Origin: Bacillota bacterium
GTDB lineage: Bacteria; Bacillota; Clostridia; Christensenellales; CAMQZB01
Length of the DNA stretch: 64,000 nt
Reading direction: 5' to 3'
NCBI GenBank assembly: GCA_044426045.1
Contig: JAWXUX010000007.1
Location: 26,318 to 90,317 of the forward strand
In this document: in pieces, positions 7,248 to 64,000 of the stretch
Layout of the letters: each line of letters begins with the position of its first letter
Position numbering within the stretch: the stretch's first letter is position 1
The notes under the pieces: generated by a model
What the model was told of the DNA's origin: nothing
The model's database searches: none
Seen by the model: the letters and a program-made list of their open reading frames with translations, nothing else
Made by a program: the position numbers and the translations under genes

Positions 7248-7258
7248 AATATATCTCC

Positions 7259-9148: not shown

Positions 9149-9155
9149 TTTATTC

Positions 9156-42077: not shown

Positions 42078-42081
42078 TAAA

Positions 42082-42933
42082 CTACCCCTCTAATCCGAAG
42101 GCTCTTCCGCGGCCTTCATTAAGCTGATAGCCATCAACAAATACACCTTGCTTATCCATAATACGGACTTTCGAAATATATCCTAGGTCATTTAGTAATT
42201 TACAAAAAATGCTTTTTATATTATTGCTTTCGCTTTTAAATATCAAATCATTTCTAACCTCATCCCATATTCCATACAATTCTTCAAAGGTTGTAATATA
42301 TTCTTCATTTCCACATTTAAAAATATAGTTTTCGCCATCTTTTTCAACAGTCCAATCATTTTCAAAAATATATGAAATCATTCTACATTGCTCTTCAACA
42401 TCGTCAAGAACACCTCTAAATGACATATTTTTTGCATCTTTTTTGAGCCAATCCATAGTTCCTTTTGGATTTTTGTGTTCAGGTTCGATATTCTCGCCAG
42501 GTCCTATATAGATATAAACATCTATAGGCAACGGCTTCAAATATTTTTCCATTATCGGACGCACATCATTCCAAGACAATTCCCCATTCCCGCATCCCAA
42601 TCTAGGAAACGCTATTGAAGTTATACTTTTTTCCGCATACGTACTAACGAATTTTCTTAGACCATCTTCTATATATTCAAGTTTTGACGGATTCCTCCAA
42701 TGCTCTTTAGTTGGAAATAGCAACACCCAATGATCAGGGAAATAGAACAACATAAGTTTTCCTGTTTTTAAAGCATGCTTTTCGCAAACTTTTTTATAGT
42801 CATCAAACATTCTAGGATATCTATTTTTGAATGTCAATGCAAGACCCTTTCCCATAACTCCAACTGTATTGACCGTATTAACAATAACTTGCGCCGGACT
42901 ATCAAATATATTACCTTCTACATATTCTAACAT
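42082..42933 (-). CDS. darG: macrodomain protein (DarG-like antitoxin candidate)
   Basis: VIVNTVNTVGVMGKGLA and SIAFPRLGCGNGEL macro motifs, plus a ~130-aa C-terminal domain. Confidence 0.7.
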   Translation of the reverse strand: MLEYVEGNIFDSPAQVIVNTVNTVGVMGKGLALTFKNRYPRMFDDYKKVCEKHALKTGKLMLFYFPDHWVLLFPTKEHWRNPSKLEYIEDGLRKFVSTYAEKSITSIAFPRLGCGNGELSWNDVRPIMEKYLKPLPIDVYIYIGPGENIEPEHKNPKGTMDWLKKDAKNMSFRGVLDDVEEQCRMISYIFENDWTVEKDGENYIFKCGNEEYITTFEELYGIWDEVRNDLIFKSESNNIKSIFCKLLNDLGYISKVRIMDKQGVFVDGYQLNEGRGRAFGLEG

Positions 42934-43253: not shown

Positions 43254-43865
43254 TTACACCATTTTTATAAACTCGCTCGCAATATCCACATCGTCAATTC
43301 TTATTGTTATTTCTTCATCGGTGGCAAAGCCCATGAAATTTATATTGCCGTACCATGTGATTTTACAATCTATCACTGCGAAGTTTTGATGTACTTTTTC
43401 TTTTTGAATCACTTTAATTCCAAAGTTTTGAAGGTGCTCTATATTTCGCGATACGGCGTCTTTCATTTCTGGTTTGAAAGATTCTGTTTGTGTTGTTATT
43501 ATTGTCACGACAGTGCCGTTTAGCATTGCTATGGCAAATTCTTTTGCTATATTTGTTATTCTATCTTTTTTCAAAGATGAGGCGAACACTACAATTTCAC
43601 AATTTGCTTTTCTTATATCTTCATAGAATGCTTTTGAGTAATTTTCTGTGTTATAAATAATATTTGGATTGTTTTCTACCCCTTCGCACCCTAATATTTT
43701 ATAGCCTATTTCCGCATAACTTTTAACCCTTTTGTGATACATTCTTTCAAGCACTGGCACGTGGATATCGGCGTAGTCGTATATCACTACATCCTTTTTG
43801 TTATCTAGCAAGCGATGAAGTCTGCCAGCATATTGAGCAACTTTGCCCTTCCATGCTATTGGCAT
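43254..43865 (-). CDS. helicase motif VI plus HKD-like domain fragment (C-terminal 203 aa)
   Basis: Same frame as the upstream fragment. Its first Met lies 13 codons after the TAA. Confidence 0.55.
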   Translation of the reverse strand: MPIAWKGKVAQYAGRLHRLLDNKKDVVIYDYADIHVPVLERMYHKRVKSYAEIGYKILGCEGVENNPNIIYNTENYSKAFYEDIRKANCEIVVFASSLKKDRITNIAKEFAIAMLNGTVVTIITTQTESFKPEMKDAVSRNIEHLQNFGIKVIQKEKVHQNFAVIDCKITWYGNINFMGFATDEEITIRIDDVDIASEFIKMV

Positions 43866-43904
43866 TGCAAGAAAAAGGGTATCTAATCTCGGGAAATCAA
43901 ATCC

Positions 43905-46187
43905 TTAACCCACGTATTTACCCGTTGCGATTATAACTAGGCTGTCGCAATCTTTATATTCTGCGAGTTTTTCACTTGCCAATCGCTTTTCTTTAGCAGA
44001 CATTGTGCCAACCAATTTGACTATGTTCTCGCACTTATCTTTCAAAAGCTCGCTCAATAGTTCCACATGACCTACTCGCTCGGTCAAAACAAGTGGCGTT
44101 CTTCCATTTCCTAGTGCTGAAACAACATCACCAACTATCATTTTATTTCTCTCGCTATTTTTTGCAATGTCATTATATATTTGAGAGATTTGCTTTTCGT
44201 CTTTTATTGCCGTCACTTTCAATTTTGTAAATCTAGGGGAAATATAATGCTCAAATGGACGATTGCCCGCCTCCGTTTTGGCATCAACTCGGTATCTTAT
44301 ATCCCCACACTGCAAGAAAATTATTGGATGGTGCCCGTCTTGTCTTGTTGGAGTTGCAGTTAGCCCATAAACATACCTCGCACTTGCACACTTCAAAATC
44401 TTTTCAAAATTCACCGCCGACACATGATGGCATTCGTCAACTATTATTTGCCCATAGTTTCGCACAAGTTCCTTGACCTCGCCACCCTCAAATAGCGATT
44501 GCATAATAGCCACATCAACTTTGCCATTCAATGTGTTTTTGCCACCGCCAAGAATGCCAACTGGGCTTAACTGTTTTTTGCGTCCACGCTTTTTAGGCTG
44601 ATCTTCGACATCAATTTCTGGTTGTTGCAAAATCAAAAATTCCTCAAGTGATTTTTGCCACTGAGAAAGCAAGCTTTGAGTGTGAACTAGCACAAGGGTG
44701 TTTGTTTTATGTTTTGCTATTATATTAGCAGAAACCACCGTTTTTCCAAAAGCAGTAGTTGCAGAAAGCACCCCCGTGTCATGCGCAAGCAAAGCGTTCA
44801 CTGCCAAAGATTGTTTTTCTCGCAATTTGCCTTTAAATTCTGCTTGAATTTCCTTTCCAAAGTTCCTTTCGTCTACAATCTTATAACTCACATCTGCATT
44901 TTCCAGCATGCGAACAAGCGATTCTTTCCCTCCTCTTGGGATTGAAATATAATCACCATCATCTTCTGCAAGCGTTATTATCCGCGGTTTATTATATATC
45001 GGCAGTCGCATAGCTTGCGATTTATAGAAATCAGGATTTCTGAATGAAACCAACCTTTTAATCTGCGTTTGTACTTTTTGCGATAAACCAGCTTTACCTA
45101 TATAAATCGTTCCAGCCTCCACTATTTCCACTTCACTGCAAGTGAAATCTTCTTTTGAGATTACGGTTTTTCTAGCATTTTGCCACGGCTTTTTGTTCTC
45201 ACTTTCTTCATCTGTTGTGACTAGCTCACCTAAATCAGAATTAACGCATAGAACTGCCACTTTTCCCTCTACTTCTACAAGTGTTATCTTCTTAGCTTCA
45301 GAAAGATACGCCCATTGGTCTTTTATTGGAGCGAAATCATCATCCACAAACACACTGTTACCATTCTTTCTAGCAAGTCCTTGCAACGGCAGTGCAATAA
45401 GATTGCCAAAACCACCGTGTGGCATATTGTCTTGGTTTGGGAAAAGTCTATCGTATGAATCAAATTTGATATCGCTTCGGCTGCTCATTGCAAACGTCAA
45501 AAGACCGCTCCCCAACTTTCTTGCCAAATAGCTAGGAACGCACTCTGCAAAAAATATCCAAACATGTGCGCCGTTTCCCGAGCGAGAACGCTCAATATAT
45601 ACTGGAATTTCATGTTCTTGTGCAACTCCCTTAAAAGCTAAAACATCTTTTTCGTATTCTGCATCGTCAAAGTCCAATGCTAAAAAATGGCAAGCTTCAT
45701 CTTTTAGCATTGGATAAATTCCCAACACATCTTTCCCTTGCGAATCCTTGCCACGTAAATGATTTTCTATGACTTCATCACTTATAGATTTCAATTTCCT
45801 ATGCGGACAAGTTGCACATTTATATTTCTTTTTGTCACACAAATAACTGTTCCATTCATTTAAACAAACGGGCTGATATCCACTCTTTCCTGTTTTGGCA
45901 CTGTACCACCGCCGAGCAAATACATCATCCCGCCCCTTGAAAAGCGAGCGAAACAACGTAATTTTGTCTTCCTTTGAACTTTGCATATTAACTTGCAGTA
46001 TTTTATTTTGAGTGTTTCTATCTTCTGCTAGAACTGGCAGGCTATCTTCATTTACAGCCAATAAACTTTCTATATCTACATTTAAATCACGCAGTCTATC
46101 ACGAAAAACACCATTCTCAAACCGCAATCTTTCGTTTTCTAAAAGCAATTTGTCGTATAAAGTTTTTAATTCGTCGTAGTTATTCAT
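43905..46187 (-). CDS. AEP-helicase fragment (N-terminal 760 aa)
   Basis: Tracked ORF 43905..46208. Ends at the premature TAA between helicase motifs V and VI. Confidence 0.6.
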   Translation of the reverse strand: MNNYDELKTLYDKLLLENERLRFENGVFRDRLRDLNVDIESLLAVNEDSLPVLAEDRNTQNKILQVNMQSSKEDKITLFRSLFKGRDDVFARRWYSAKTGKSGYQPVCLNEWNSYLCDKKKYKCATCPHRKLKSISDEVIENHLRGKDSQGKDVLGIYPMLKDEACHFLALDFDDAEYEKDVLAFKGVAQEHEIPVYIERSRSGNGAHVWIFFAECVPSYLARKLGSGLLTFAMSSRSDIKFDSYDRLFPNQDNMPHGGFGNLIALPLQGLARKNGNSVFVDDDFAPIKDQWAYLSEAKKITLVEVEGKVAVLCVNSDLGELVTTDEESENKKPWQNARKTVISKEDFTCSEVEIVEAGTIYIGKAGLSQKVQTQIKRLVSFRNPDFYKSQAMRLPIYNKPRIITLAEDDGDYISIPRGGKESLVRMLENADVSYKIVDERNFGKEIQAEFKGKLREKQSLAVNALLAHDTGVLSATTAFGKTVVSANIIAKHKTNTLVLVHTQSLLSQWQKSLEEFLILQQPEIDVEDQPKKRGRKKQLSPVGILGGGKNTLNGKVDVAIMQSLFEGGEVKELVRNYGQIIVDECHHVSAVNFEKILKCASARYVYGLTATPTRQDGHHPIIFLQCGDIRYRVDAKTEAGNRPFEHYISPRFTKLKVTAIKDEKQISQIYNDIAKNSERNKMIVGDVVSALGNGRTPLVLTERVGHVELLSELLKDKCENIVKLVGTMSAKEKRLASEKLAEYKDCDSLVIIATGKYVG

Positions 46188-46194
46188 TAATTCA

Positions 46195-47157
46195 TTAAGC
46201 TTCTTCAATTAAATCAAATATTGAATTTTGCACATTTGCTCTAGTTTCAGGTGTATTTCTTACATAATTCAAGTCAAAATTCAAATCTATTGGCAGGGCT
46301 CCTTGTGCGATAAGTTGTTTATTTCCTTTATACTCGCTATTATCCCAGCAAAGTGTGTGCCCCCAATTATTTCTCAAATTCTCAGTTGCACCCGCCCATG
46401 TACCACCTTTGTTATAGTCAGCTTTCACCACAACAGTTCCCAAAGCCTGGGCATATATATATTTATTTCTTTGCATTGCCATTCCAACGTTAAATCCCGC
46501 ACTAGGACTGCTTGCGGAAATCAACACTAGCTTGCCATCACGTATCGCTTTCGCTGTTTTGCCATTTTTAATTTTCCTAGCCATAGAATCCGACAAAAAT
46601 TCAATCGCAACACCACCGATATTGATAGCTTCACTTGTTGCAACAGTATCCACTCCTTTAGCTCCGCCAGAAGCAATATAAAATTGTGATTCAACTGCTT
46701 TTTTAACCATTTCTTCAGTAAATTTCACATCTGCTCCTGAGACATTTCTTGAGCCGACATATCCAATAGACTCATTGTTTAACAAGTCGATATCTCCACA
46801 ATAATAAAATAGCGGTGGACAGCTTTGCTTAAGCTTTCTTTTTAAATTTTTTGGATACTCATCATCTGCTCTTGTCACTATGTTTATACCCATGCCATTC
46901 AGCTTTTCAATCTCAAACGCTAAACTGCCACCTCTATCTAGCAATCGTTTTATTCTATCTGCTTTACCACTATCAAAGCACAGAATATCATTAAAATCTG
47001 CTATACCAAAATCCAGCAAATCTTGTGGCGATTTTTTATGGACAATCAGTTGACTGGAAATTTCTGCCCACTCTTTTGGGAGCAATGGACTTATTCCTTC
47101 ACCAACACCAATATGGCTGCACAAACAGAATATTACTTCGCTAATTTTATTTTTCAT
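46195..47157 (-). CDS. DprA/Smf-like (SLOG Rossmann) protein
   Basis: GYVGSRNVSGADV...ASGGAKGVDTVATSEAI...QRNKYIYA. Start overlaps the RecQ stop (TAATG). Confidence 0.8.
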   Translation of the reverse strand: MKNKISEVIFCLCSHIGVGEGISPLLPKEWAEISSQLIVHKKSPQDLLDFGIADFNDILCFDSGKADRIKRLLDRGGSLAFEIEKLNGMGINIVTRADDEYPKNLKRKLKQSCPPLFYYCGDIDLLNNESIGYVGSRNVSGADVKFTEEMVKKAVESQFYIASGGAKGVDTVATSEAINIGGVAIEFLSDSMARKIKNGKTAKAIRDGKLVLISASSPSAGFNVGMAMQRNKYIYAQALGTVVVKADYNKGGTWAGATENLRNNWGHTLCWDNSEYKGNKQLIAQGALPIDLNFDLNYVRNTPETRANVQNSIFDLIEEA

Positions 47158-49214
47158 TATAACTCCTTACTACTGCTATCTGCAAGTGCAAAAGGGAAAA
47201 CACATTGTACACCTTTTTCCATTAATTTATATCCACACACGGTCAAAGTCCATTTTGAATCTATAACATCATCAACCAATATGATTTTTTCAGGAAAATT
47301 TTCTACATTTTTCACTGAAAATGATTTTTGGGCGTTATAGCACTGAAATGAACTATTCTCCATTTCTTTTTGCACTTTTGCCTCACTTTTATCAATCAAT
47401 GATACAAATTCTAATTTTAACGATTGAGCTAATCTCTTTGCAAAATCTTCAACTATGTCACTTCTCAATGAAGGAACGCACGTGATGTGGGTGTATCCCG
47501 CACCTCTTAACTTTTCGGATAGCACTTTTGCACTCTTTCCCACCAATTCATCACTAAATCTTTTTTCTATATATTTACCCTTCTTAACCAATTCCCCATA
47601 ACCTGGGTCTCCATATTTACTCAAACAAATTCCAATTTCATTTAAAGGTTTTATTTTGCTAGCCTTCGGAGTTATAGATGTTGTTGCCCACATCTTTCTC
47701 GGCTCTATAGGAATGGTTAAGCTATTCAAATATTCGAGTGCTCCACTTCTCTCTTCATTTGACAGTTCGGTATTAAAGATATCATGTCCCAAACAGTTTG
47801 CACATTTGCCACAATTTTTTCCATTGTCATCATCTAAGCAATTAACAACAAATTTACTATAGCATGAATTGATTTCTACAAGATCTTTAATTTGCTCTTT
47901 TTCTCTTCTTCTTATGGCTTTTATCTCTTCATAATGTTTTTCATTATATTCATACTTATTCGTCGTTATATAATAATAGTTTTTTTCTTTATAGATAGCA
48001 CGTTCATTTTCTAGAAAATTTAAAGTCTTTTCAATATTGCTTTTGCGTTTATTGACATAACTTGATATTTGCCCTAGTCTTATTCCATCATGCCCCCCAA
48101 TCACACCATAAACTTGTTCACATTCGTCCCTTGATGGAAATGCGGTTTCTATAAAATATTCAGTTATATTGTCATCCTCTTCTCCCGAAAGCAAAATTGC
48201 ATAAGCCTTATCTATATTTCTTCCCGCTCTGCCAATTTGTTGATAGTATGTAACGATATTTGCAGGTTTTTGAAAATGAATAACGAAACCTATATCACCC
48301 TTATCATACCCCATACCAAGCTTGATTGTGGCAACGATAACCTTGATTTTATTTTTTGAAAACTTCTCAAGAGCAATCCTGTTTTGCTCTTCATTTTCAC
48401 TTCTTGAATAATAAGGCGCTGAACTTATTCCATTTTTATTCAAAAAGGAAGATAAATAATCACAATCTCTTTGCGTTAAACAATATATAATTCCCGTGCC
48501 TGGCAACTTGTTAATATTTTTCAAAATCCAAGCATATCTATCCGCCCTATCTTTCATCTTAACGACTTGAATAGCTAGTGATTCTCTTGTGAGTGGTCCT
48601 CTTGAAACAAATACATCTTCTCCAAGCTGAACTTTCAAATCTTCAACAACACGATCGTTTGCAGTTGCCGTAGTTGCAAGTATTGGTATATTTGATAGGG
48701 TGGACTTTATAACTTTATATAAATTACTATATTTCAATCTGAAATCGTGCCCCCAATCAGATATGCAGTGTGCTTCATCAATCACAAACAACCCAATTCT
48801 TATGCTGTGAATTGCTTCTTGCACTTCTTGCAAAAACAAAGTCTCTGGCGTTATAAGCAACAAATCAATTTCATCATCTTTTAAACTTTGGATTATTTCA
48901 CTCCGCCTTTCTGCAGTAGTCGAATTCAGCTGTTCGCACCTGAGCCCCAATTTATTAGCTGCTTGTATTTGATTTTCCATAAGAACTAACAATGGACTTA
49001 TGACAAATGTTGTGCCTTTACCTTGTTTTCTCAATAGTTTAGTGCAAACGAAATATACTAAACTCTTACCCCAACCTGTCTTTTGAACAACTAGCGTCCT
49101 CTTTTTTGTCATCGTTTCTTCAATCGCTTCATATTGACCATCGCGAAAATCGCTATTGCTACCATATAAAGTATGCAAAATTTCATAACTTTCATTTTTT
49201 AGCTCAGTGTTCAT
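47157..49214 (-). CDS. recQ: RecQ-family helicase fused to a C-terminal phosphoribosyltransferase (ComF-like) domain
   Basis: QKTGWGKSL, DEAHCISDWGHDFR, QQIGRAGR and the zinc motif CGKCANC. PRTase motif IILVDDVIDSKWT near the C-terminus. Confidence 0.85.
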   Translation of the reverse strand: MNTELKNESYEILHTLYGSNSDFRDGQYEAIEETMTKKRTLVVQKTGWGKSLVYFVCTKLLRKQGKGTTFVISPLLVLMENQIQAANKLGLRCEQLNSTTAERRSEIIQSLKDDEIDLLLITPETLFLQEVQEAIHSIRIGLFVIDEAHCISDWGHDFRLKYSNLYKVIKSTLSNIPILATTATANDRVVEDLKVQLGEDVFVSRGPLTRESLAIQVVKMKDRADRYAWILKNINKLPGTGIIYCLTQRDCDYLSSFLNKNGISSAPYYSRSENEEQNRIALEKFSKNKIKVIVATIKLGMGYDKGDIGFVIHFQKPANIVTYYQQIGRAGRNIDKAYAILLSGEEDDNITEYFIETAFPSRDECEQVYGVIGGHDGIRLGQISSYVNKRKSNIEKTLNFLENERAIYKEKNYYYITTNKYEYNEKHYEEIKAIRRREKEQIKDLVEINSCYSKFVVNCLDDDNGKNCGKCANCLGHDIFNTELSNEERSGALEYLNSLTIPIEPRKMWATTSITPKASKIKPLNEIGICLSKYGDPGYGELVKKGKYIEKRFSDELVGKSAKVLSEKLRGAGYTHITCVPSLRSDIVEDFAKRLAQSLKLEFVSLIDKSEAKVQKEMENSSFQCYNAQKSFSVKNVENFPEKIILVDDVIDSKWTLTVCGYKLMEKGVQCVFPFALADSSSKEL

Positions 49215-55141: not shown

Positions 55142-55663
55142 TTGAAAACACTTCAAGAACTTTATCTTTACAATGATAAAGTATCTGCTTTTATACATTT
55201 TATAGCGTACGCAATATCTTGGATATTGGGAATAGTTATCTTTCATATAAAAGCTGAATATAATTTTGCTGGATCATACTTAATTTTTGCCCTTTCTCTC
55301 TTAACCGAATTCATACCACAATTATCTAATATAAAGGGTAAAATTGCTAGTCTAATTCACATGCTTTTTTGTCTCATTATAGCATTCATTCTAGTCTTCT
55401 CTATATTACTATTGAGTGATTTATTAACCGAACATTTACTAATTACTTTATATCACTATTTATTTATCGCATCAATAATAGTTATCACTTATATATTATT
55501 AAATTTGATTTTGATTACAGTATTCCCTCCAATTGACAAAAATATTACAAAACATTACCCAAGTAAAGATTCTCAATATTATTCAATGGTCGAGGAAGCA
55601 TTTGTCAAAAACTTACACAATGGCCATTTAGGCAATGTAATTGGAGGTAATAAGGATGAATAA
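55142..55663 (+). CDS. integral membrane protein, unknown function
   Basis: TTG start with AAGGAG 6 nt upstream. Four to five TM helices. Overlaps the ParA-like gene by 8 nt. Confidence 0.6.
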   Translation: MKTLQELYLYNDKVSAFIHFIAYAISWILGIVIFHIKAEYNFAGSYLIFALSLLTEFIPQLSNIKGKIASLIHMLFCLIIAFILVFSILLLSDLLTEHLLITLYHYLFIASIIVITYILLNLILITVFPPIDKNITKHYPSKDSQYYSMVEEAFVKNLHNGHLGNVIGGNKDE

Positions 55664-56801
55664 TACCGTAGCTTTCTTAAGCGGAAAAGGTGGTAGCGGA
55701 AAGACCACAATAGCCCTAAGTGTTTCATCAATGCTATCTAAATGCAACATAAAAATATTGCTGTTAGATTGTGACTTAAACACGAATGGAGCAACTTATT
55801 TCTACGAAGAAAAACTTTCGCAATCGAAAAACATACTGTCATTTCAGGATCTCATCTGCGACGATATTGATATTGACACTATTACACAAATAAATAGTAA
55901 TATGTTTTTTATTCCATCTATGACTAAATTCTCAGAAAAAAACACACTTCCTTCGTTATTTGATAGCCATGCAAAATTAAATTTCAATAGAAACATGCAA
56001 AAATTATTATCTAATTATGATGTTATACTATATGATTGTCAAGCTGGATACTCAGAAGTTTTAGAACTTGTTTTGCCTTTAGTTGATACAAATTTGATAG
56101 TAATGGAATCCGATGCTATTAGTGCATCATCATTAAGAAACTTATATTTAAAAATTGGACATTTATTGAATGACAATCATACTTATCAAATATTCAACAA
56201 AGTATCAAGTGATGAGTATAAAATATACTCAAAATTATCCAAAGAAACTTTCTTCCCTAATATTGAAACTGTTCTTTTTAATTGGGAAATCAGGAAAGCA
56301 TTTGCATTAGCAAACGTTCCAAACATTGACCATTTAACAGCAAGTTATGGTAGCCAAATCAACAATATATGTATGATTTTATTTAAAAATAATCTTCACA
56401 AAAAGCTTGAAAGTTACAAACAAATACTTTTTAAACTGAATATTAACGAAGAACTAGACTCACTAAAAAAAGAGCACCTAGAACTTCTCAAGTCTACAAG
56501 ATTGCAAAATCCTAAAAAAATAAATATCTATTTAGGCACAACTTTAACATGCACTATCTTGATTCTATATAGCCTTATTTTTCAAATATACGATATCTAT
56601 TACCGATTTGAGAATTTACTATCACTTACAATATCAGCATTATTTCTAACCATACTAGTAATAAGTATATTGTTGCCATCACTTAACAAATCCAAAGAGT
56701 TATCGCTTAAACGAAAAAATATAGATAATTTAGAAAAACAATTAGTTGACTTAGAAAACCGGCACGAATCCTTATCTCTTGACATAATAAAACTTGATTA
56801 A
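55656..56801 (+). CDS. ParA/MinD-family P-loop ATPase with C-terminal TM helices and a coiled coil
   Basis: Deviant Walker A SGKGGSGKTT, then LLLDCDL and VILYDCQAG. Two hydrophobic helices near the C-terminus. ATG preceded by GGAGG. Confidence 0.8.
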   Translation: MNNTVAFLSGKGGSGKTTIALSVSSMLSKCNIKILLLDCDLNTNGATYFYEEKLSQSKNILSFQDLICDDIDIDTITQINSNMFFIPSMTKFSEKNTLPSLFDSHAKLNFNRNMQKLLSNYDVILYDCQAGYSEVLELVLPLVDTNLIVMESDAISASSLRNLYLKIGHLLNDNHTYQIFNKVSSDEYKIYSKLSKETFFPNIETVLFNWEIRKAFALANVPNIDHLTASYGSQINNICMILFKNNLHKKLESYKQILFKLNINEELDSLKKEHLELLKSTRLQNPKKINIYLGTTLTCTILILYSLIFQIYDIYYRFENLLSLTISALFLTILVISILLPSLNKSKELSLKRKNIDNLEKQLVDLENRHESLSLDIIKLD

Positions 56802-57282: not shown

Positions 57283-58653
57283 TTAATATATTTCATCGCC
57301 TTTTTTCCACACTGATTCAATATAAGATTTTAATTTCTCATAATAAATATTATTATTTAGGTACACATTCTCATCTTTCCACCAATTGAAATTGCTATGA
57401 TATAAATGTGTATTTTTAAAATTTTCTATAACCAATTTTCCTTTATCTAAGCCATACTCCTCTGGATTTTTAAAAATTTTAGACCCTGGCAATGGAGTGA
57501 ATCTCAGCAATGAAACGCTGTCAATGCAACCTTTCATTTCTCTTAAAAAATTTAACGTATCCTTATTTGTTTGCTCGCTTTCAAAAGGAAACCCGCTAAC
57601 GATAAAACATTTTACATATATTGATTTTTGATGCGTATTTTTTATAGCTATTCTAGCGTCATTAACAACACATGTCTTATCCATCTTATCCAAAATCAAA
57701 TCGCTACCAGTTTCAACACCAAATTTTATTTCCACACATCCTGCAGAATATAACACATCTAAAATATCGTCATCCCCTGCAATTTGATCAACTCTTGCCG
57801 CTAAAGACCATTTCAAATTTAATTCTGCGATTTTATCGCAAATCTTTCTTGCTTTAATTTTATTTGTAAGGAAGCAATCATCAATTATTGCAAAGCCACC
57901 GATCTCATATTTCTCCTTTAGATGCTTTAACTCAGCATAAATATTTTCAGGCGACCGATATCTCGTCGGCGAATTATTTCCATCTTTAGACGCACCGCAA
58001 TACTTGCAGCCTTGCGAACACCCCCGACTAAACAGCATATGCACCATTTTGATACCGTGATTATTTGCAACCCTACCCGCCATGACAACATCATTAATGT
58101 TTAACAATTCTCTTGCAGGAAACTCCAAGCTATTCAAATCAACTATATCTTTACGCTTTATTAATTTAGAAATTTCACCACTTACAGCATCTTTAACATA
58201 AGTACCATTAACGTAGTATTGTCCATTTCTTACCTCTTCAAAACGAGCCAAGAACTCCGCCATACTATTTTCGCCTTCTCCTGCAAATATCAAATTTACA
58301 CTTAATTGCTCAAATACCTCTTTATAATGTTTTTCAGCATGATATCCTCCGGCCACATAATAAGCATTACTATTAAATTCAGATTTTTCTGTAAAAGCAG
58401 CAAATATTGAGTGCGAATATGCCGAAACCATACTTATGGCTACAAGATCATAGATTTTTAGATCTAACGCATAATTTTCCTCATCGATACTTATCAAATC
58501 TATATCCCAACCCGCATGCTTAATTATAGGCGCCAAATATAGCACCCCAAAAGGCGGGAATTCTTTTCTTTTTTTCTTAAAATGAGCTACTTCATATGAA
58601 GACACATACACTAACGCACATCTTTTCTTTATATTAGATATTTCTTCTATCAT
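57283..58653 (-). CDS. B12-binding-domain radical SAM protein
   Basis: FPPFGVLYLA B12-domain signature and the CxxxCxxC cluster SRGCSQGCKYCG. Paralogous to the C-terminal half of the 60188..62754 gene. Confidence 0.85.
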   Translation of the reverse strand: MIEEISNIKKRCALVYVSSYEVAHFKKKRKEFPPFGVLYLAPIIKHAGWDIDLISIDEENYALDLKIYDLVAISMVSAYSHSIFAAFTEKSEFNSNAYYVAGGYHAEKHYKEVFEQLSVNLIFAGEGENSMAEFLARFEEVRNGQYYVNGTYVKDAVSGEISKLIKRKDIVDLNSLEFPARELLNINDVVMAGRVANNHGIKMVHMLFSRGCSQGCKYCGASKDGNNSPTRYRSPENIYAELKHLKEKYEIGGFAIIDDCFLTNKIKARKICDKIAELNLKWSLAARVDQIAGDDDILDVLYSAGCVEIKFGVETGSDLILDKMDKTCVVNDARIAIKNTHQKSIYVKCFIVSGFPFESEQTNKDTLNFLREMKGCIDSVSLLRFTPLPGSKIFKNPEEYGLDKGKLVIENFKNTHLYHSNFNWWKDENVYLNNNIYYEKLKSYIESVWKKGDEIY

Positions 58654-58735
58654 TTTGGCTATAAGTGCTTAACTAAAACACAACTCCTTCTTCGCAAAGC
58701 TGTTTTGCGAAATTTTCAATCAGCATAAAGATCTA

Positions 58736-59293
58736 TTATTGATTGATTTTTTTATACAATAAGTTTGAATATCCCTCATTGTTTTTATTTGCAGTATTCA
58801 ACTCTAGCTCTTCGACTACACCATATACCAGTCTATTCGACTCCTCTACAGAAAGGTCTTTTTTATCGCACTCTATTTCAATAAAATATCCGAGATTCTT
58901 AACCTTATCTAAAGCTATTTTACAACAATCTTTATATCTATACTCAATCCTTTTCTTTTCAACACAGAGAATACGCTCTATATCAAGATAAGCTAATAGC
59001 TTTTCCATTTTAGTAATACTACCAATTACAACACTCACTTCATCCATGAATGTTTCTTCATCATTTTTTCCAAAATGAATCTGCTTATAATCCAGTGTTG
59101 CCCAACTATCCGCCTGTCTAATTCTTAGGCATTTATCCATATCTACAAAAAAATCACAATGCTTTGGCGAGTAGTAAATGTCTTTTTGAGTACTTTCATG
59201 AATAATCTCACATTCCAATCGCAATTTATCGCAAAGCTCAGTGTATTTTTGCAAAGAAACTTCTAATTTGATTTCAACTTCTATATTTTCCAT
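58736..59293 (-). CDS. CYTH-domain protein (triphosphate tunnel metalloenzyme / class IV adenylate cyclase-like)
   Basis: N-terminal EVEIKLEV (ExExK) signature, ~185 aa; GAGGG RBS. Confidence 0.7.
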   Translation of the reverse strand: MENIEVEIKLEVSLQKYTELCDKLRLECEIIHESTQKDIYYSPKHCDFFVDMDKCLRIRQADSWATLDYKQIHFGKNDEETFMDEVSVVIGSITKMEKLLAYLDIERILCVEKKRIEYRYKDCCKIALDKVKNLGYFIEIECDKKDLSVEESNRLVYGVVEELELNTANKNNEGYSNLLYKKINQ

Positions 59294-59377
59294 AAAGTAC
59301 CCTCACTTATTTTTATGATTGAATTATATCACATTATTCATCAAATGCAAAACATTAATACCCATAATATATGCTAA

Positions 59378-60163
59378 CTACTTATTTCTTAATGAAATTA
59401 AATTTTCCATTATCCAAGTTGCTACACCATCTTCTTGATTAGAACCACAAATGTAGTTAGCTATATTTTTTATCTCAATTGTCGCATTTTTGACAGCAAC
59501 CCCAATAGAACAATTTTCTATCATATCTTTGTCGTTATTATCATCTCCAAAAGCCAAAACATTAATTCTTCCAAAACCATAATCTTTCAAAACTATATCT
59601 ATCGCATTCATTTTGTTAGATGTTTTTGACATAATTTGCACAAGATTATTATTACATTTATTAATAGTAATCATAGAATTATATTGACACAGTGTATTAA
59701 TGTCAAATTTTTCATTTATTTCAATAGTAATTTTCATTATTTTATTTAAATAAATACTATTTTCATACAGTATTGCATTCCAAATCGCATCTGCCATAAA
59801 TGGGGAATTTTCACTGCAATATAAATTTTCTCCTGTTTCAATATCAAAATACTTAATCCCGTCACACTGCAAGAAATTTATTATATCAATACCAATGTTT
59901 GGGTCAATATAGCTATTTTTAATAATTTTTCCATTAGAATATACAGTTGCTCCATTATTTGCAATAATACCATCTACATCAAGGCATGTTTTTTCTAACA
60001 TATTAAAAACCACCCTTAATGGTCTAGCTGTAGCAAGAAATACGACTATCCCCAATTCTCTACACTTATTGATAACCTGAATTGAATATTTTGATATGCT
60101 TTTATCATCATGCAACAAAGATCCATCCAAATCTATCGCCAATAACTTTATATCATGACACAT
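59378..60163 (-). CDS. Cof-type HAD-IIB family phosphatase
   Basis: Motif I LAIDLDGSLL, motif IV AFGDDNNDKDM; AGGAG RBS. Confidence 0.85.
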   Translation of the reverse strand: MCHDIKLLAIDLDGSLLHDDKSISKYSIQVINKCRELGIVVFLATARPLRVVFNMLEKTCLDVDGIIANNGATVYSNGKIIKNSYIDPNIGIDIINFLQCDGIKYFDIETGENLYCSENSPFMADAIWNAILYENSIYLNKIMKITIEINEKFDINTLCQYNSMITINKCNNNLVQIMSKTSNKMNAIDIVLKDYGFGRINVLAFGDDNNDKDMIENCSIGVAVKNATIEIKNIANYICGSNQEDGVATWIMENLISLRNK

Positions 60164-60187
60164 TAAATCTCCTAAGAAAACAACAGA

Positions 60188-62754
60188 TCAATAAATTACT
60201 TTATCATTTTTCCATATCCTTTCAATGTATTGTTCTAACACTTTATAATACGTATTTTTCTTTTTGAATTCTGTCTCATCTTTCCACCAATTAAAATTCC
60301 CATGGTATAAATGTAAGTTATCAAAATTTTCTAAAATTAATTTCTCTTTATCAATGCCATATTTCTCTGGGTTAGAAAAATTGGTGAACCTGGCAATGGC
60401 GTAAATCGCAACAATGATACACTATCAATTTTTTTATGTAATTTCTTTAAAAATAACAGCGTTTCCTTCGTCGTAACTGCTGTTTCTCCTGGGAACCCAC
60501 TAACGATAAAACATTTAACGTAAAAGCCTTGTTCATGCGCTAAATTTATTGCATTTTCAGCGCACATTGAGCTACACCCCTTATTCATATAATTCAATAT
60601 TATATTACTTCCAGATTCAATTCCAAATTTTATTTCTACACAACCCGCATCTTTCAAAGAACCCAAAATATCCAAATCAATTTGGTCGGCTCTAGCAGCA
60701 AGTGACCATTTTAAATTTAGTGAAGCATTTTCAATTGCTTTACAAATTTTAATGGCAGCGTTCTTATCGGTTAAAAAACAATCATCAATTATAGCAAATC
60801 CATCTATTTTATAGGTTTTCTTTAACAAAATTAATTCTTCTACAATATTGTCTGGCGACCTATATCTAACAGGGCTATTTTTCCCATCTTTCGTCGCACC
60901 GCAATACAGACACATCTTTGAACAGCCTCGACTAAATAGAACATGTACTATTCTAACATTGCTATCATTTCTTAATCTTCCCGTCATTACAATGTCACTT
61001 TCCGGCAAAAGGTCTCGAGCAGGAAACGGTATGCTATTTAATTTGACGGTATCCTTGCTCTCTTTAAATTTGTATAATGACATTTTTAAAGGACTCGCTC
61101 CTTCACTTTTAGATTGCGATTCTTTATCTATCATAAATGTGCCATTAATATATGTTTTAGGACATCTAGCTCCAAAATATTTGTTTAAAAATTCAGTTAA
61201 CGCATTTTCTCCCTCTCCTGAAAATACTAGGTCTACATACATATCTCTCATCACATCTTGATAGTATTTTTCAGCATGATATCCTCCAGCAACCATATAA
61301 CGACCTCGTTTAAACTTGCTAGTATCTACAAATTTCTTAAAGATAGCATGCCCATATGAAGACACCATGCTCAAACCAACAACATCAGCATCGCTTAAAT
61401 CATGCGTGAAAGCGTTTTCGCTTATACTTTTGATTTCTACATCCCAACCAGCATCTCGAATTATACTTGCCAAATATAATATTCCAAATGGAGGAAACTC
61501 TTTTCTATATTCTTTGAAATGCGCCACTTCATATGATGATATGTATATTAAAACAAATTTATATTTTAACCTTATATTTAATTGGCTACTAAAATCTTTA
61601 TCGTCATCATTTACTGCATTCTTTTTATTCTCTTTAATACACTCTGCAACTTTATCATATATCCCGAGGCACCTTTCCACAATAATATTTGAAGATTCCA
61701 CATCTATTTTATCCCACTTCGAAGAAAAATAATCCTGATACACGGGCTTTACCACATCATTTTTGGCAGATTCTGAATACTTCCATCGTGATGAATCAAC
61801 CTGATATGTTATTATATTCTTACTCATTCTTCCTAATATTTTCGCGACATTGCACCCTATTTTATTTATCAATATTTTATCTTTGTTTTTATTAAGGTTA
61901 AGATAATATGTTGCTTTTTCACTGTCCGTTTCTACATATGTTAATGCTTTCATTGGTATGTTCGCTGAATATGTAATAAATCTAGCTCTAGTTCCAAAAT
62001 CTTCGCTATGTTCATTATAAAATTTAATTTCAACTCTCGGACACTCTCTTTTTATTTTTGCTATTCTCAACATTTGTTGAAGGTTTGTATCAAATAAATT
62101 TTCAAAAGTAGTTGTCTCAACTTCTATATTTAAATCATATTTACACAATATTTTTAATTTTAATTTTGTATTATTGCACAAATTTTTTAATTGGAGATAT
62201 TCATTGTTCTCATCCATGTCTTTTACTGGCTGCGACAAAATATATCTATTTCTATCATCTTTATCAAGATTTTTATTTTTTATATATGCAACTACCTTGC
62301 GTTTATTCTTTTTTTGTCCAAAACTTACTTGCCCCAAGAAATCCATATCCCCAGCAAGCATTTCTACAACCTCTTTATCTCCACCTTTATCCATTATATT
62401 AATAATTTTTTTTACCATCTTGTCTGGATTTAAAACATATTTTTCCCATTTGATGATATTTATTATAACAATAAATATAGAAACTATTAGACACTGTAAC
62501 ACTGAATCAATAGTTAAAAATGAAATACCCTCTATGCTTGGTAATATATCTCCTTCACTAGAGTCTTGCAGCTTACTGAATATTAATTGAAAGCTAGTAT
62601 TATCAGCAATATACGGAATAACTCTTTCAAAATAATTTGCAAAAAGTACAATAATAGCAATACCTATTAAAAATAACATCCTCGGTTTTTTCTCAGATAT
62701 TTGTGTTGCAAGAATTGTGCCAAGCAACATTGACGCTACAGCAGAATAATACAT
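60188..62754 (-). pseudogene. membrane-anchored unknown domain fused to a B12-binding radical SAM domain; -1 frameshift near the 3' end
   Basis: Tracked ORF is 60337..62766. ATG at 62754 (MYYSAV) is preceded by GGAGG. CxxxCxxC cluster SRGCSKMCLYCG. After the A5/T5 tract at 60376-60380 another frame continues NPEKYGIDKEKLILENF...NFNWWKDE... to TGA at 60188, matching the paralog's C-terminus. Confidence 0.75.
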
Positions 62755-63064
62755 TTTATCCTCCATTAATATAATTTTTTAACCATAAATAATATTGACA
62801 TTACCTTGCAATAATAATCAATCACTAAAATACAAATCACGAGTGTAAACTTTATCCAGTACGTCTGCGAGGTCTTCTGAATAGCGGTTTGCTATTATGA
62901 CGTCGGCGAGGAATTTAAATTCGTCGATAGTTCTCATTACTTTAGAATTGAAAACAAGCCCTCTGCCATCAAAAGTTCAAAGATGACCACTTCTCTATGC
63001 CTTTTGCTTTAATTCGCTTCATAGCCCCCTGAATTGAGCTTTGACGAAAGTTGTCATTTTATTA

Positions 63065-63670
63065 CTATCTTCCTTTATACATCTTATCGTAATAATCTGC
63101 ATATTCTCCGCTTAAGATGTCTTGCCACCATTTTTTGTTGTTTAGATACCAATCGATTGTTTTTTTTATACCATCAGCGAACTTAGTTTCTGGGAGCCAG
63201 CCTAGTTCGTTGTGGATTTTTGTTGGATCGATGGCGTAGCGCATGTCGTGACCTTTTCTGTCGGTTACGTATTTGATTAGGCTTTCTGGTTTATTGAGTT
63301 CTTTTAAAATCAGCTTTACAATGTCTATGTTTGCCATTTCGTTGTGACCACCGATGTTATATACTTCGCCTATTCTTCCTTTATGTATGATCAAATCGAT
63401 TGCTTTACAATGATCTTCAACGTATAGCCAATCTCTCACGTTTAAACCTTCGCCATAAACCGGGAGGTCTTTATTATTCAAACAATTTGCAATCATAAGT
63501 GGAATCAATTTTTCCGGGAAGTGGTACGGTCCATAGTTATTTGAACATCTTGAGATTGTCACCGGCAAGCCGTATGTTCTGTGATACGCTTGCACCAACA
63601 AATCAGCACTGGCTTTGCTTGCGCTGTATGGGCTTGATGTATGAATTGGCGTTTCTTCAGTGAACAGCAG
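63065..63670 (-). pseudogene. rfbB: dTDP-glucose 4,6-dehydratase, 5'-truncated (about the C-terminal 200 aa only)
   Basis: [55 protein letters not shown]... is the RfbB core. Homology stops at about 63670, next to an in-frame TAG, and no N-terminal Rossmann part is present. Confidence 0.8.
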
Positions 63671-64000
63671 CTACCCACAATTATAATGGCTAGCATTATA
63701 TATTCAATATTCTCCCTTTATACTCCACTTCTCAGTGATAGAGTAATCGCAACTGTTTTTCGTAGCTCAAGTGATCAATACAGGCTCGTGTTAGTTTCTT
63801 TTTTACTCACGAAAACAATAAAAATCGTGTTCCATAGCTGTCCACTTTTTTGTATGCAATTTGAGTTGGTTTGCCAATATGGCGATTTTAGATTCATCGT
63901 CTATTATTTGATTATCTCTCGTTTATCCAATTATTCCACTACCAAAATAATTCAATCAATAATAAATAGCCATTACTCTTATCCCAACAAAAGAAATACC

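What the first reader, a model, noticed from the sequence alone, without database searches (positions are those of the whole stretch)
57283..62766. Unrecognised four-gene cassette: TM-fused B12-radical SAM, Cof-type HAD phosphatase, CYTH (triphosphate tunnel) and a second B12-radical SAM
SEEN: Four co-directional minus-strand genes are separated by 24, 84 and 82 nt, in the most AT-rich part of the window. Gene 1 (60188-62754) has 3-4 N-terminal TM helices and then ~300 aa with no motif I recognise. It ends in a B12-binding/radical-SAM module (FPPFGILYLA; SRGCSKMCLYCG). Gene 2 is a Cof-type HAD (DLDGSLL; GDDNNDKDM). Gene 3 is a CYTH protein (EVEIKLEV). Gene 4 (57283-58653) is a stand-alone paralog of the rSAM module (FPPFGVLYLA; SRGCSQGCKYCG) that aligns by eye over its entire length with the C-terminal half of gene 1. 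KNOWN: CYTH/TTM enzymes act on triphosphate substrates (class IV adenylate cyclases, triphosphatases). HAD-IIB Cof enzymes are phosphatases. Radical SAM enzymes of the viperin type make chain-terminating nucleotides in antiviral defence. B12-rSAM enzymes typically alkylate unactivated carbons. INFERENCE: The combination of an rSAM pair, a triphosphate-handling enzyme and a phosphatase suggests synthesis or processing of a modified nucleotide or phosphorylated small molecule. The cassette sits in an island next to Fic, DarT-like and helicase modules, so it could be a new defence or toxin-like system. A RiPP or natural-product role is the alternative. I cannot match it to any named system from memory.
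Basis: partly seen in the sequence, partly recalled or inferred. Interest (0 to 1): 0.85.

Follow-up and report, generated by a model that had tools for sequence, protein, structure and literature searches.

The report
Membrane-anchored radical SAM plus CYTH module
The four genes are real, but the conserved unit is an undescribed pair: a triphosphate-handling CYTH enzyme and a membrane-anchored B12-type radical SAM enzyme, found in bacterial anti-phage defence islands and most likely making or processing a modified nucleotide.

Summary
In detail: four co-directional minus-strand genes, with the stated motifs, spacings and AT-richness. Gene 1 carries a 1-nt deletion in a T-run, and intact 855/859-aa alleles exist elsewhere. 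The four-gene set is lineage-specific. What recurs is a pair: CYTH directly upstream of a ~770-aa protein made of 2-3 TM helices, a new ~290-aa domain and a B12-type rSAM module. All nine other lineages with a readable upstream flank have this pair. Six of seven independent contexts lie beside known defence systems or recombinases (PsyrTA, DarTG, Shosta, Sir2-pAgo, DISARM-like). Gene 4 is a duplicated catalytic half of gene 1. The HAD occurs only in this lineage but is under purifying selection. Unfused relatives of the rSAM sit in a cassette of dNMP kinase, rSAM, AlkZ-like DNA glycosylase and MazG/NUDIX. The new domain also exists as a separate membrane protein next to rSAM genes. No curated rSAM family, viperin model, RNA family or paper matches; only the untested PADLOC candidate PDC-M51 hits weakly. 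Best reading (about 0.5): a radical enzyme that modifies a nucleotide, with CYTH and HAD trimming the phosphate tail, used in defence. Chemistry and phenotype are untested.

The parts
60188..62754 (-). g1: membrane-anchored B12-type radical SAM protein. It is 855 aa when intact; here it is frameshifted by a T6->T5 deletion at 60376-60380, and the open frame from 62766 ends at 60337.
   Evidence: ORF and translation. Intact alleles P0121/P0203 and frameshifted alleles both exist. Pfam B12-binding 44.2 bits, Radical_SAM 69.7 bits. AF2 model pLDDT 78.
62443..62751 (-). g1 N-terminal membrane anchor: 2 strong TM segments and 1 weak one. Loop charges place the rest of the protein in the cytoplasm.
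   Evidence: Kyte-Doolittle scan and loop charges. AF2 helices 2-21, 29-54, 86-110.
61582..62439 (-). g1 middle domain ('N-dom', about aa 110-395): new, with no Pfam or PDB sequence match. Invariant residues are G139 D140 M141 (AGDMDF), E189, C208, F249 Y250, R260 R262 (LRARFI), Y277 and W351. It has a weak PLD-like fold without the HKD motif.
   Evidence: Alignments A2/A4. Pfam and PDB profile searches empty. Foldseek best hit PLD1, E 7.8e-4, TMq 0.33. Family search over 1.84 billion representatives.
60367..61569 (-). g1 catalytic half: Rossmann-like B12-binding domain (about aa 400-530) and radical SAM core with CSKMCLYC (about aa 600-800).
   Evidence: Pfam. Foldseek nearest solved structures are QCMT/MgmA 9ccb, AprD4 6fd2, TsrM and OxsB.
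59378..60163 (-). g2: Cof-type HAD-IIB phosphatase, an accessory gene specific to this lineage.
   Evidence: Hydrolase_3 166 bits; TIGR00099 143.7 against cut-off 137. Found only in window-type loci and in L098. dN/dS 0.24 against L098.
58736..59293 (-). g3: CYTH / triphosphate tunnel metalloenzyme with all catalytic residues intact.
   Evidence: PF01928 62.8 bits; TIGR00318 73.5 against 57.95. Nearest solved structure SaTTM 7ns8, E 3.4e-14. E5 E7 K9 R57 R59 K70 E85 K113 R115 D129 E139 E141 are invariant in 8 module CYTHs. dN/dS 0.07.
57283..58653 (-). g4: stand-alone B12-type radical SAM protein, a duplicated catalytic half of a g1-type gene.
   Evidence: 56% identical to the g1 C-half. Sister to g1 inside the fused clade in an NJ tree. 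dN/dS 0.09 against the 80%-identical L098 copy.

Best explanation
Shown:
- The recurring unit is two genes. One is a catalytically intact CYTH enzyme. The other is a cytoplasm-facing, membrane-anchored enzyme built of TM helices, a new domain (N-dom) and a class-B-type (B12-binding-like) radical SAM module.
- In this lineage the unit has expanded. The catalytic half was duplicated to give g4, and a Cof-type HAD phosphatase was added.

Inferred mechanism:
- The rSAM module uses a 5'-deoxyadenosyl radical, possibly with cobalamin, to modify a nucleotide, probably a deoxynucleotide, on the base or the sugar.
- CYTH works on the triphosphate tail of the substrate or product. It fills the slot that MazG, NUDIX or a dNMP kinase fills in unfused relatives.
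- Here, HAD removes the last phosphate.
- The product acts as an antimetabolite or poison of replication during phage infection. This follows the logic of viperin-plus-kinase systems and of the OxsB/OxsA pair in oxetanocin synthesis.
- N-dom with its TM helices holds or regulates the rSAM at the membrane. Its role is the least understood part.
For: 1. CYTH lies directly upstream of the fused rSAM in every other lineage with a readable upstream flank: Merdimonas, C. transplantifaecale, Blautia, and the P0051, P0005, P0003, L108, L175 and L120 types. Gaps are 1-5 nt or the genes overlap by 4-7 nt.

2. Six of seven independent contexts hold known defence or mobility genes within about 5 kb:
- window: PsyrTA, DarTG, TOTE-type primase-helicase, Fic
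- L008: Shosta directly upstream
- L022: a Sir2-pAgo fusion
- L012: Vsr, C5 methylase and a DrmE_C-like protein
- L004/L007: integrase, MazE, TIR
- L099: integrase

3. Unfused relatives sit in a cassette of dNMP kinase, rSAM, AlkZ-like glycosylase and MazG or NUDIX. Among the genome loci, 46 have AlkZ, 29 the kinase and 22 MazG.

4. N-dom also occurs as a separate TM protein of about 260-380 aa directly next to rSAM genes. L185 and L191 have it beside B12-type rSAMs, and L191 also has AlkZ. L186 has the operon ExoIII - dCTP deaminase - rSAM - TM/N-dom inside a mobile element.

5. The only defence-library hit is candidate PDC-M51: A = rSAM at 35-72 bits, and B = kinase at 39.5 bits to the actinomycete kinase.

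6. The CYTH catalytic residues are invariant. HAD, CYTH and g4 are under purifying selection at dS > 1.

7. OxsB, a cobalamin-dependent rSAM of the oxetanocin A pathway, is a precedent for this enzyme class in making a nucleoside analogue (PMC12931638). That it acts on 2'-deoxyadenosine phosphates together with the phosphohydrolase OxsA is from my own knowledge.
Against: - There is no experimental or direct sequence evidence for the substrate.
- The rSAM half is equally close to enzymes that act on proteins, sugars and RNA (QCMT, AprD4, TsrM, MiaB).
- Cobalamin binding cannot be read from the sequence. AprD4, the second-nearest solved structure, is treated as unrelated to the B12-dependent enzymes in the B12-rSAM review (PMC12931638).
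- The fused Firmicutes clade has no kinase or glycosylase neighbour, so the nucleotide link rests on CYTH and on relatives only 33-43% identical.
- The membrane anchor has no obvious role in a purely cytosolic nucleotide pathway.
- Defence is guilt by association only. PDC-M51 is itself an untested candidate.
- g1 is frameshifted in this window.
Confidence: 0.5

Rival explanations
1. Signal-and-effector system of the Pycsar/CBASS type. CYTH acts as a class IV nucleotide cyclase that makes a cyclic nucleotide on infection. N-dom binds the signal and activates the membrane segment (depolarisation), the rSAM module, or both.
For: g3 scores above the NCBIfam cyaB (class IV adenylate cyclase) cut-off, and NCBI names it so. 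The partner has TM helices followed by a cytosolic domain of unknown function with an invariant Arg pair that could bind phosphate. The two genes are tightly coupled. The loci lie in defence islands.
Against: N-dom/TM proteins pair with rSAM genes in loci that have no CYTH at all (L185, L191, L186), so N-dom is not a dedicated receptor for a CYTH product. The closest solved CYTH is deposited as a triphosphate tunnel metalloenzyme (SaTTM); that SaTTM is a hydrolase rather than a cyclase is from my own knowledge. In unfused relatives the equivalent slot is filled by hydrolases and kinases (MazG, NUDIX, dNMP kinase). A 450-aa conserved rSAM enzyme is an unusual effector.
Confidence: 0.15
2. Modification of a cell-envelope glycopolymer or lipid. 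A membrane-bound PLD-like/rSAM enzyme methylates or deoxygenates a sugar, sugar-nucleotide or lipid head group. HAD and CYTH act on phosphorylated intermediates. Any phage resistance would come from receptor alteration.
For: The protein has a membrane anchor. The N-dom fold is closest to PLD-superfamily phosphodiester transferases, including phosphatidylserine synthase. AprD4, a sugar diol-dehydratase, is among the nearest solved rSAMs. Cof-type HADs are often sugar phosphatases. Remnants of rfbB/ugd lie just upstream of g1 (identified by eye). UDP-glucose dehydrogenase and an NTP-transferase lie about 2 kb downstream in L008.
Against: The HKD catalytic motif is absent from N-dom, and there is no invariant His. 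The Foldseek match is weak (TMq 0.33). Most contexts have no polysaccharide genes and instead have integrases and defence systems. Relatives are linked to DNA and nucleotide enzymes, not glycosyltransferases.
Confidence: 0.12
3. Nucleotide-pool or DNA-damage housekeeping: repair or salvage of a damaged or unusual deoxynucleotide rather than immunity.
For: Base-excision-repair and pool-sanitising genes (AlkZ-like, ExoIII, MazG, NUDIX) accompany relatives. In Patescibacteria the rSAM lies near ribonucleotide reductase and NUDIX in apparently stable contexts.
Against: The fused pair is patchy. Only 3 of the 80 genome-representative loci are of the fused type. It sits beside integrases, transposases and defence systems, and its flanks vary within one protein cluster. 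A housekeeping repair enzyme would not be expected to tolerate the frameshift polymorphism seen here.
Confidence: 0.1
4. RiPP or other natural-product tailoring.
For: Many class-B rSAMs tailor peptides and natural products. The best NCBIfam hit of the actinomycete relatives is the RiPP enzyme ApyD, at 197 bits against a cut-off of 750.
Against: There is no precursor-peptide, protease, transporter, NRPS or PKS gene in any of the contexts examined. The recurring unit is only two genes. All family scores are far below cut-offs. antiSMASH/RODEO were not available.
Confidence: 0.05

Closest known systems
Prokaryotic viperins (pVip), often with a nucleotide kinase
   Same: A radical SAM enzyme sits next to enzymes that act on the phosphate tail of nucleotides, in defence islands. 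The proposed logic, a modified nucleotide that poisons viral replication, is the same.
   Different: No pVip or viperin model hits g1 or g4. The rSAM here is a ~450-aa class-B-type module with a Rossmann (B12-binding-like) domain, fused to TM helices and a new domain. The partner is CYTH, not a kinase.
PADLOC candidate PDC-M51 (A = rSAM, B = kinase-like protein); untested as far as I could find
   Same: It is the only defence-library model that matches. PDC-M51A hits g1/g4 at 39-41 bits and relatives at 35-72 bits. PDC-M51B hits the dNMP kinase of the actinomycete cassette at 39.5 bits.
   Different: The scores are low and cover mainly the rSAM core. The window has no PDC-M51B homologue. CYTH, HAD, TM and N-dom are not part of PDC-M51. 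No paper in the library mentions PDC-M51.
OxsB/OxsA of oxetanocin A biosynthesis
   Same: A cobalamin-dependent rSAM works with a phosphohydrolase to make an antiviral nucleoside analogue. [quoted passage not shown] OxsB is among the structural neighbours (rank 8, E 4.6e-17).
   Different: Identity is about 15%, and there is no sequence-level hit. The phosphohydrolase there is an HD-domain protein (own knowledge), not CYTH or HAD. OxsB is soluble, and the pathway is plasmid-borne secondary metabolism.
Nearest solved rSAMs: QCMT/MgmA (9ccb) and AprD4 (6fd2)
   Same: They share the overall architecture of a Rossmann domain, a TIM-barrel rSAM core and a C-terminal domain (Foldseek E 3.7e-21 and 3e-20; phmmer E 4e-6 and 4e-9).
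   Different: Identity is 17-21%. Their substrates are a protein glutamine and an aminoglycoside sugar. NCBIfam models for both families score far below cut-off (58-77 against 360, 56-59 against 500).
CYTH / triphosphate tunnel metalloenzymes (SaTTM Saci_0718; class IV adenylate cyclase CyaB)
   Same: g3 is a full member: it has the Pfam CYTH domain, the ExExK motif and all tunnel residues.
   Different: I found no described case of a CYTH gene paired with a radical SAM gene. Whether it cyclises or hydrolyses is unknown.
Pycsar/CBASS (cyclase plus TM effector)
   Same: A two-gene layout of a small nucleotide-handling enzyme plus a larger protein with N-terminal TM helices, in defence islands.
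   Different: CYTH is unrelated to the cyclases of those systems (own knowledge). The large protein carries a complete rSAM enzyme. N-dom pairs with rSAMs even where CYTH is absent.

Membership tests
Radical SAM superfamily | CxxxCxxC cluster motif and a Pfam PF04055 match above the gathering score | tested here: met
   CSKMCLYC in g1 and CSQGCKYC in g4. PF04055 scores 69.7 and 63.1 bits against 29.5.
Class B (cobalamin-dependent) radical SAM enzymes | N-terminal Rossmann-type B12-binding domain (PF02310) preceding the rSAM core | tested here: met
   g1 scores 44.2 bits against 32.1. g4 scores 30.5, just under the cut-off. The structural neighbours are QCMT, TsrM and OxsB.
Class B (cobalamin-dependent) radical SAM enzymes | Actual binding and use of cobalamin | not testable with these tools
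   No universal sequence motif exists. AprD4, the second-nearest structure, is grouped as unrelated to the B12-dependent enzymes in PMC12931638.
Characterised B12-rSAM families (BchE, HpnJ, PhpK, ApyD, QCMT, AprD4, BzaD, HpnR, ladderane rSAM) | NCBIfam score at or above the curated cut-off | tested here: not met
   The best hit is BchE, at 94.8 bits (g1) and 125.5 bits (g4) against 481. All others are further below their cut-offs.
Prokaryotic viperin (pVip) | Match to the viperin models (NCBIfam NF038283; PADLOC pVip) | tested here: not met
   g1 and g4 give no hit at E <= 0.01 in either library.
PADLOC candidate PDC-M51 | Both components present (A = rSAM, B = kinase-like) with strong model matches | tested here: not met
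   A matches at only 39-41 bits over the rSAM core. None of the four cassette proteins hits the PDC-M51B model.
CYTH / triphosphate tunnel metalloenzyme | PF01928 match, N-terminal ExExK and conserved basic and acidic tunnel residues | tested here: met
   62.8 bits against 23.2. E5-x-E7-x-K9 and R57, R59, K70, E85, K113, R115, D129, E139, E141 are invariant.
Class IV adenylate cyclase (CyaB) | Cyclase rather than hydrolase activity | not testable with these tools
   TIGR00318 scores 73.5 against 57.95, but the nearest solved relative is the TTM SaTTM. Activity needs an assay.
Cof-type HAD-IIB phosphatase | TIGR00099 above cut-off, with motif I DxDGxL and motif IV GDxxND | tested here: met
   143.7 bits against 137. 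DLDGSLL and GDDNNDKDM are present.
Phospholipase D superfamily (for N-dom) | HxK(x)4D catalytic motif | tested here: not met
   There is no invariant His in 68 sequences. The invariant residues are G139, M141, E189, C208, F249, Y250, R260, R262, Y277 and W351.
Phospholipase D superfamily (for N-dom) | PLD fold | tested here: inconclusive

The most novel reading that the evidence does not exclude
This would be a new family of immune (or antibiotic-producing) enzymes. A class-B, possibly cobalamin-using, radical SAM enzyme makes a base- or sugar-modified deoxynucleotide that poisons replication.
- The rSAM is tethered to the membrane by a previously unrecognised HKD-less PLD-like domain. That domain is a general partner of radical SAM enzymes, whether fused or encoded separately.
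- CYTH, MazG, NUDIX, kinase or HAD set the phosphorylation state of the product.
- In some lineages, base-excision enzymes (AlkZ-like, ExoIII) protect the producer's own DNA.
Probability: 0.35. Interest if true: 0.85.

Novelty: new variant of a known kind. Interest (0 to 1): 0.72.

Why it matters
If the reading is right, rSAM-based nucleotide immunity extends beyond viperins to the chemically much more versatile B12-type enzymes, which methylate, contract rings and dehydrate. New antiviral nucleoside analogues could then be found in gut Firmicutes, actinomycetes and Patescibacteria.

The work also defines a new domain of about 290 aa. It is fused to, or encoded next to, radical SAM enzymes in many lineages and has no annotation anywhere.

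It gives CYTH proteins, whose cellular roles are mostly unknown, a concrete and testable partner.

Finally, it links three cassettes into one theme that can be tested with a handful of constructs:
- the untested PADLOC candidate PDC-M51
- the widespread actinomycete cassette of kinase, rSAM, AlkZ and MazG
- the gut mobile-element operon of ExoIII, dCTP deaminase, rSAM and TM/N-dom

Tried and rejected
- **N-dom by sequence.** Pfam scans of 18 members and a profile search of all PDB sequences found nothing. hhalign against the window's PLDc_2 protein was not significant. PADLOC and Pfam on ten stand-alone TM/N-dom proteins found nothing.
- **Riboswitch or other RNA element.** None was found in L001 (the near-identical copy of the cassette locus) or in three homologous loci at E <= 0.1.
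- **Phage or plasmid carriage.**
  - Megablast of the cassette against plasmids found nothing.
  - tblastn against plasmids and phages found only distant rSAMs of 24-29% identity.
  - Three IMG/VR scans found only three partial matches of 30% identity, or none.
  - So I rejected the idea that this is a phage gene.
- **Housekeeping rSAM families.** BchE, HpnJ and the others are rejected on score.
- **Viperin membership.** Rejected.
- **Four genes as the conserved unit.** Rejected. HAD and g4 are absent from all other lineages.
- **Literature.** Eight searches (CYTH with radical SAM; TTM with anti-phage; AlkZ/rSAM/MazG/kinase; PDC-M51; cobalamin rSAM with anti-phage or antiviral) found no description. 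The rSAM defence systems that did turn up, Ophion and HXS, are unrelated architectures.
- **Accessory neighbours.** PDB sequence searches for the 134-aa Patescibacteria neighbour and the 176-aa L186 neighbour gave nothing useful.

Full report
**1. What is in the window**

Four minus-strand ORFs occupy 57283-62766, with gaps of 24, 84 and 82 nt. This is the most AT-rich stretch of the window, GC 0.30-0.32.

Domain calls:
- g1 has Pfam B12-binding (aa 421-526) and Radical_SAM (aa 610-773).
- g4 has the same two domains.
- g2 is a Hydrolase_3/Cof HAD, TIGR00099 143.7 bits against 137.
- g3 is a CYTH protein above the NCBIfam cyaB cut-off, 73.5 against 57.95.

g1 is interrupted. After ...PGSPIFL the conserved sequence continues in another frame (PEKYGIDKEKL...KVIY, stop at 60188). 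Intact alleles of 855/859 aa read ...PIFSNPEKYG... (P0121). The window therefore has T5 instead of T6 at 60376-60380.

Both alleles occur in public assemblies: four contigs intact and four frameshifted, including two NCBI MAG proteins. The lesion removes about 55 C-terminal residues, several of them nearly invariant.

The real start is 62754: GGAGG lies 5 nt upstream, and P0121 starts there. NCBI names the four products radical SAM protein, HAD family hydrolase, class IV adenylate cyclase and radical SAM protein, in a Bacillota MAG.

**2. Not a known rSAM family**

Every NCBIfam rSAM model is far under its cut-off. The best is BchE, at 95-125 bits against 481. No viperin model hits. PADLOC gives only a weak hit to candidate PDC-M51A, 39-41 bits.

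By sequence, the nearest solved proteins are AprD4 and 9ccb. By fold, an AF2 model of g1 (pLDDT 78) is closest to QCMT/MgmA, AprD4, TsrM, OxsB, MiaB and CysS. This is the generic class-B-type architecture, with no pointer to a substrate.

**3. The recurring unit is a pair, not four genes**

A search with g4 found about 70 proteins of roughly 770 aa with the g1 architecture. It also found a separate clade of about 430-aa stand-alone enzymes. I examined contexts from exact-sequence look-ups and from scans of species-representative genomes and metagenomes.

Findings on the fused type:
- Every fused gene with a readable upstream flank has a 183-214-aa CYTH gene immediately upstream on the same strand. 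The gap is 1-5 nt or the genes overlap by 4-7 nt.
- This holds in nine lineages besides the window: Merdimonas faecis, Clostridium transplantifaecale, a Blautia MAG, and the P0051, P0005, P0003, L108, L175 and L120 types.
- The CYTH proteins keep all catalytic tunnel residues.

Findings on the HAD and g4:
- HAD appears only in window-type loci, in the contigs that carry the intact g1 allele, and in L098.
- L098 is a variant from the same study, with products 62-83% identical and the order HAD-CYTH-rSAM456.
- Between the window and L098, dS exceeds 1 while dN/dS is 0.24 (HAD), 0.07 (CYTH) and 0.09 (g4). The three genes are therefore maintained together by selection.
- g4 and its L098 orthologue are sister to the C-terminal half of g1, inside the fused clade (NJ tree; 56% identity). 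g4 is thus a duplicated catalytic half that lost the membrane part.

**4. Genomic setting**

The window's island holds:
- PsyrTA at 46195-49214 (PsyrT 783 bits, PsyrA 309 bits)
- a TOTE-type AEP primase-helicase with a PLD protein at 43254-46208
- DarTG at 41049-42933
- a Fic/PDC-S04 protein at 39889-40776
- a large serine recombinase, RhuM and a Bro-N protein

Other copies of the pair lie in these settings:
- directly after a Shosta system (L008)
- two genes after a Sir2-pAgo fusion (L022)
- before a Vsr / C5-methylase / DrmE_C-like / helicase set (L012)
- next to tyrosine integrases, MazE and a TIR protein (L004, L007)
- next to an integrase (L099)

One context, L019, shows only cell-wall-binding repeat proteins.

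The pair is rare among species representatives: 3 of 80 loci. It is absent from phage and plasmid collections apart from distant rSAMs. No riboswitch or other Rfam element was found in L001 (the near-identical copy of the cassette locus) or in three homologous loci.

**5. What the relatives say**

The stand-alone clade includes actinomycetes, Verrucomicrobia and Acidobacteria. It lies in a conserved cassette: thymidylate-kinase-like dNMP kinase, then rSAM, then AlkZ-like DNA glycosylase, then MazG or NUDIX. Among the genome loci, 46 have AlkZ, 29 the kinase and 22 MazG.

In Patescibacteria and Bdellovibrionales the rSAM faces a conserved 134-aa protein with no Pfam match. It can also lie near ribonucleotide reductase and NUDIX. 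The actinomycete kinase hits PDC-M51B at 39.5 bits, and the rSAMs hit PDC-M51A at 35-72 bits. The whole family is therefore a distant relative of that untested rSAM-plus-kinase candidate.

**6. The unknown region of g1**

Residues 1-108 hold two strong hydrophobic segments and one weak one. Loop charges put the remainder in the cytoplasm.

Residues about 110-395 (N-dom) are homologous across the fused family. The invariant residues are G139-D140-M141 (AGDMDF), E189, C208, F249-Y250, R260 and R262 (LRARFI), Y277 and W351.

N-dom matches nothing in Pfam or in PDB sequences. An AF2 model of the domain (pLDDT 78, pTM 0.77) gives only PLD-superfamily proteins at the top of a Foldseek PDB search. 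These are PLD1 (E 7.8e-4), PLD2, PLD3, Tdp1 and phosphatidylserine synthase, all with low TM-scores. The HKD motif is absent.

A profile search of 1.84 billion representatives found 73 proteins. Besides the fused enzymes, there is a family of about 250-380-aa proteins made only of the TM helices and N-dom. In all three contexts I could read, these sit directly beside a radical SAM gene:
- L185: a distant B12-type rSAM starts 9 nt downstream.
- L191: a 430-aa family member follows, and an AlkZ-like gene is divergent.
- L186-L190: the operon is exodeoxyribonuclease III - dCTP deaminase - rSAM (non-B12, weakly pVip-like at 49 bits) - TM/N-dom - 176-aa protein. It lies between serine recombinases beside a PDC-S39 gene, and the TM/N-dom protein (P0187) is indexed in 157 blocks of the assembly collection.

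The fused and split arrangements show that N-dom is a dedicated partner of radical SAM enzymes, independent of CYTH.

**7. Interpretation**

Shown:
- the anatomy
- the pairing with CYTH
- the partnership between N-dom and rSAM enzymes
- the duplication that gave g4
- purifying selection on HAD, CYTH and g4
- the island setting
- the nucleotide and base-excision neighbours of relatives

Inferred:
- The rSAM modifies a nucleotide, probably a deoxynucleotide.
- CYTH occupies the phosphate-tail slot that MazG, NUDIX or a kinase fills elsewhere.
- HAD takes the product down to the nucleoside in this lineage.
- The product serves defence.

Precedents for this logic:
- viperin with a kinase
- OxsB, the cobalamin-dependent rSAM of oxetanocin A synthesis (PMC12931638), with its phosphohydrolase partner OxsA (own knowledge)

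I put this reading at about 0.5.

Rivals:
- **Cyclase-signal/effector reading, 0.15.** It is weakened because N-dom pairs with rSAMs where no CYTH exists.
- **Envelope-modification reading, 0.12.** It rests on the membrane anchor, the weak PLD-like fold and polysaccharide genes or remnants in two contexts.
- **Housekeeping repair or salvage, 0.1**, and **RiPP tailoring, 0.05.** Both fit the distribution poorly.

**8. Novelty**

I found no paper that pairs CYTH with a radical SAM enzyme, or a cobalamin-type rSAM with phage defence. The rSAM defence systems in the literature searched, Ophion (rSAM + PHP + PRTase) and HXS, are different.

I rate this a new variant of a known kind, rSAM-based nucleotide-centred defence. 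It contains one new element: the TM/N-dom partner domain.

The main caveats are that all functional claims rest on association, that cobalamin use is unproven, and that g1 is frameshifted in this window.

Noticed in passing
window 46195-49214 (-): A complete PsyrTA (RqlHI-type) pair: a 685-aa helicase (PsyrT model 782.9 bits) and a 320-aa DprA-like protein (PsyrA 309.2 bits).
   Followed up: partly
window 41049-42933 (-): A DarTG toxin-antitoxin/defence pair: DarT (Pfam 84.5 bits) and a macro-domain DarG (PADLOC 208.7 bits).
   Followed up: partly
window 43254-46208 (-): A 767-aa protein with a TOTE conflict-system AEP primase domain (PF22548, 324 bits) fused to a ResIII/DEAD helicase. It is followed by a 203-aa PLDc_2 protein that weakly resembles DrmC.
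   Followed up: partly
window 39889-40776 (-): An HTH-Fic protein that strongly matches PADLOC candidate PDC-S04 (359.7 bits) and also SoFic.
   Followed up: no
window 62800-63700 (-): Directly upstream of g1 lie what look, by eye, like decayed polysaccharide genes. One is a truncated dTDP-glucose 4,6-dehydratase-like ORF (63065-63601). The others are out-of-frame fragments resembling the C-terminus of UDP-glucose dehydrogenase. The island seems to have been inserted into, or next to, a sugar-nucleotide locus. No HMM check was run.
   Followed up: no
window 55142-56801 (+): Convergent with the cassette are a 173-aa multi-TM protein with no family match and an overlapping 386-aa ParA/MinD-type ATPase (AAA_31, 69 bits) with a hydrophobic C-terminal tail. 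They accompany the cassette in the same-strain contigs L001-L003. In L098 the contig ends about 700 nt after g4, so their presence there cannot be judged.
   Followed up: partly
window 60376-60380: The g1 frameshift lies in a T-run (T5 here, T6 in intact alleles), and both alleles are present in public assemblies. This could be phase variation, decay or assembly error.
   Followed up: partly
L186-L190, about 4362-8496: A very widespread mobile-element operon (its TM/N-dom protein P0187 is indexed in 157 blocks of the assembly collection): DUF1413 - exodeoxyribonuclease III - dCTP deaminase - 359-aa radical SAM (weakly pVip-like) - TM/N-dom protein - 176-aa unknown. It lies between serine recombinases and next to a PDC-S39 gene. 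It looks like an undescribed defence candidate in its own right.
   Followed up: partly
L025-L097 (e.g. L080 about 6100-9800; L038, L060, L074): A conserved actinomycete cassette of thymidylate-kinase-like protein, B12-type rSAM, AlkZ-like DNA glycosylase and MazG (or NUDIX), often with a large HTH regulator nearby. It is distantly related to PADLOC candidate PDC-M51. I found no description of it.
   Followed up: partly
L114 2696-4000: In one Bacilli-type metagenome locus, the CYTH upstream of the rSAM is the C-terminal part of a 434-aa ORF with about 245 extra N-terminal residues of unknown nature. It may be a fusion or a mis-called start.
   Followed up: no
L099/L100, downstream of the pair: An 1141-aa Y4jQ-family protein is followed by two response-regulator proteins, one fused to a PNP_UDP_1 nucleosidase domain. 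This may be another conflict system next to the CYTH-rSAM pair.
   Followed up: no
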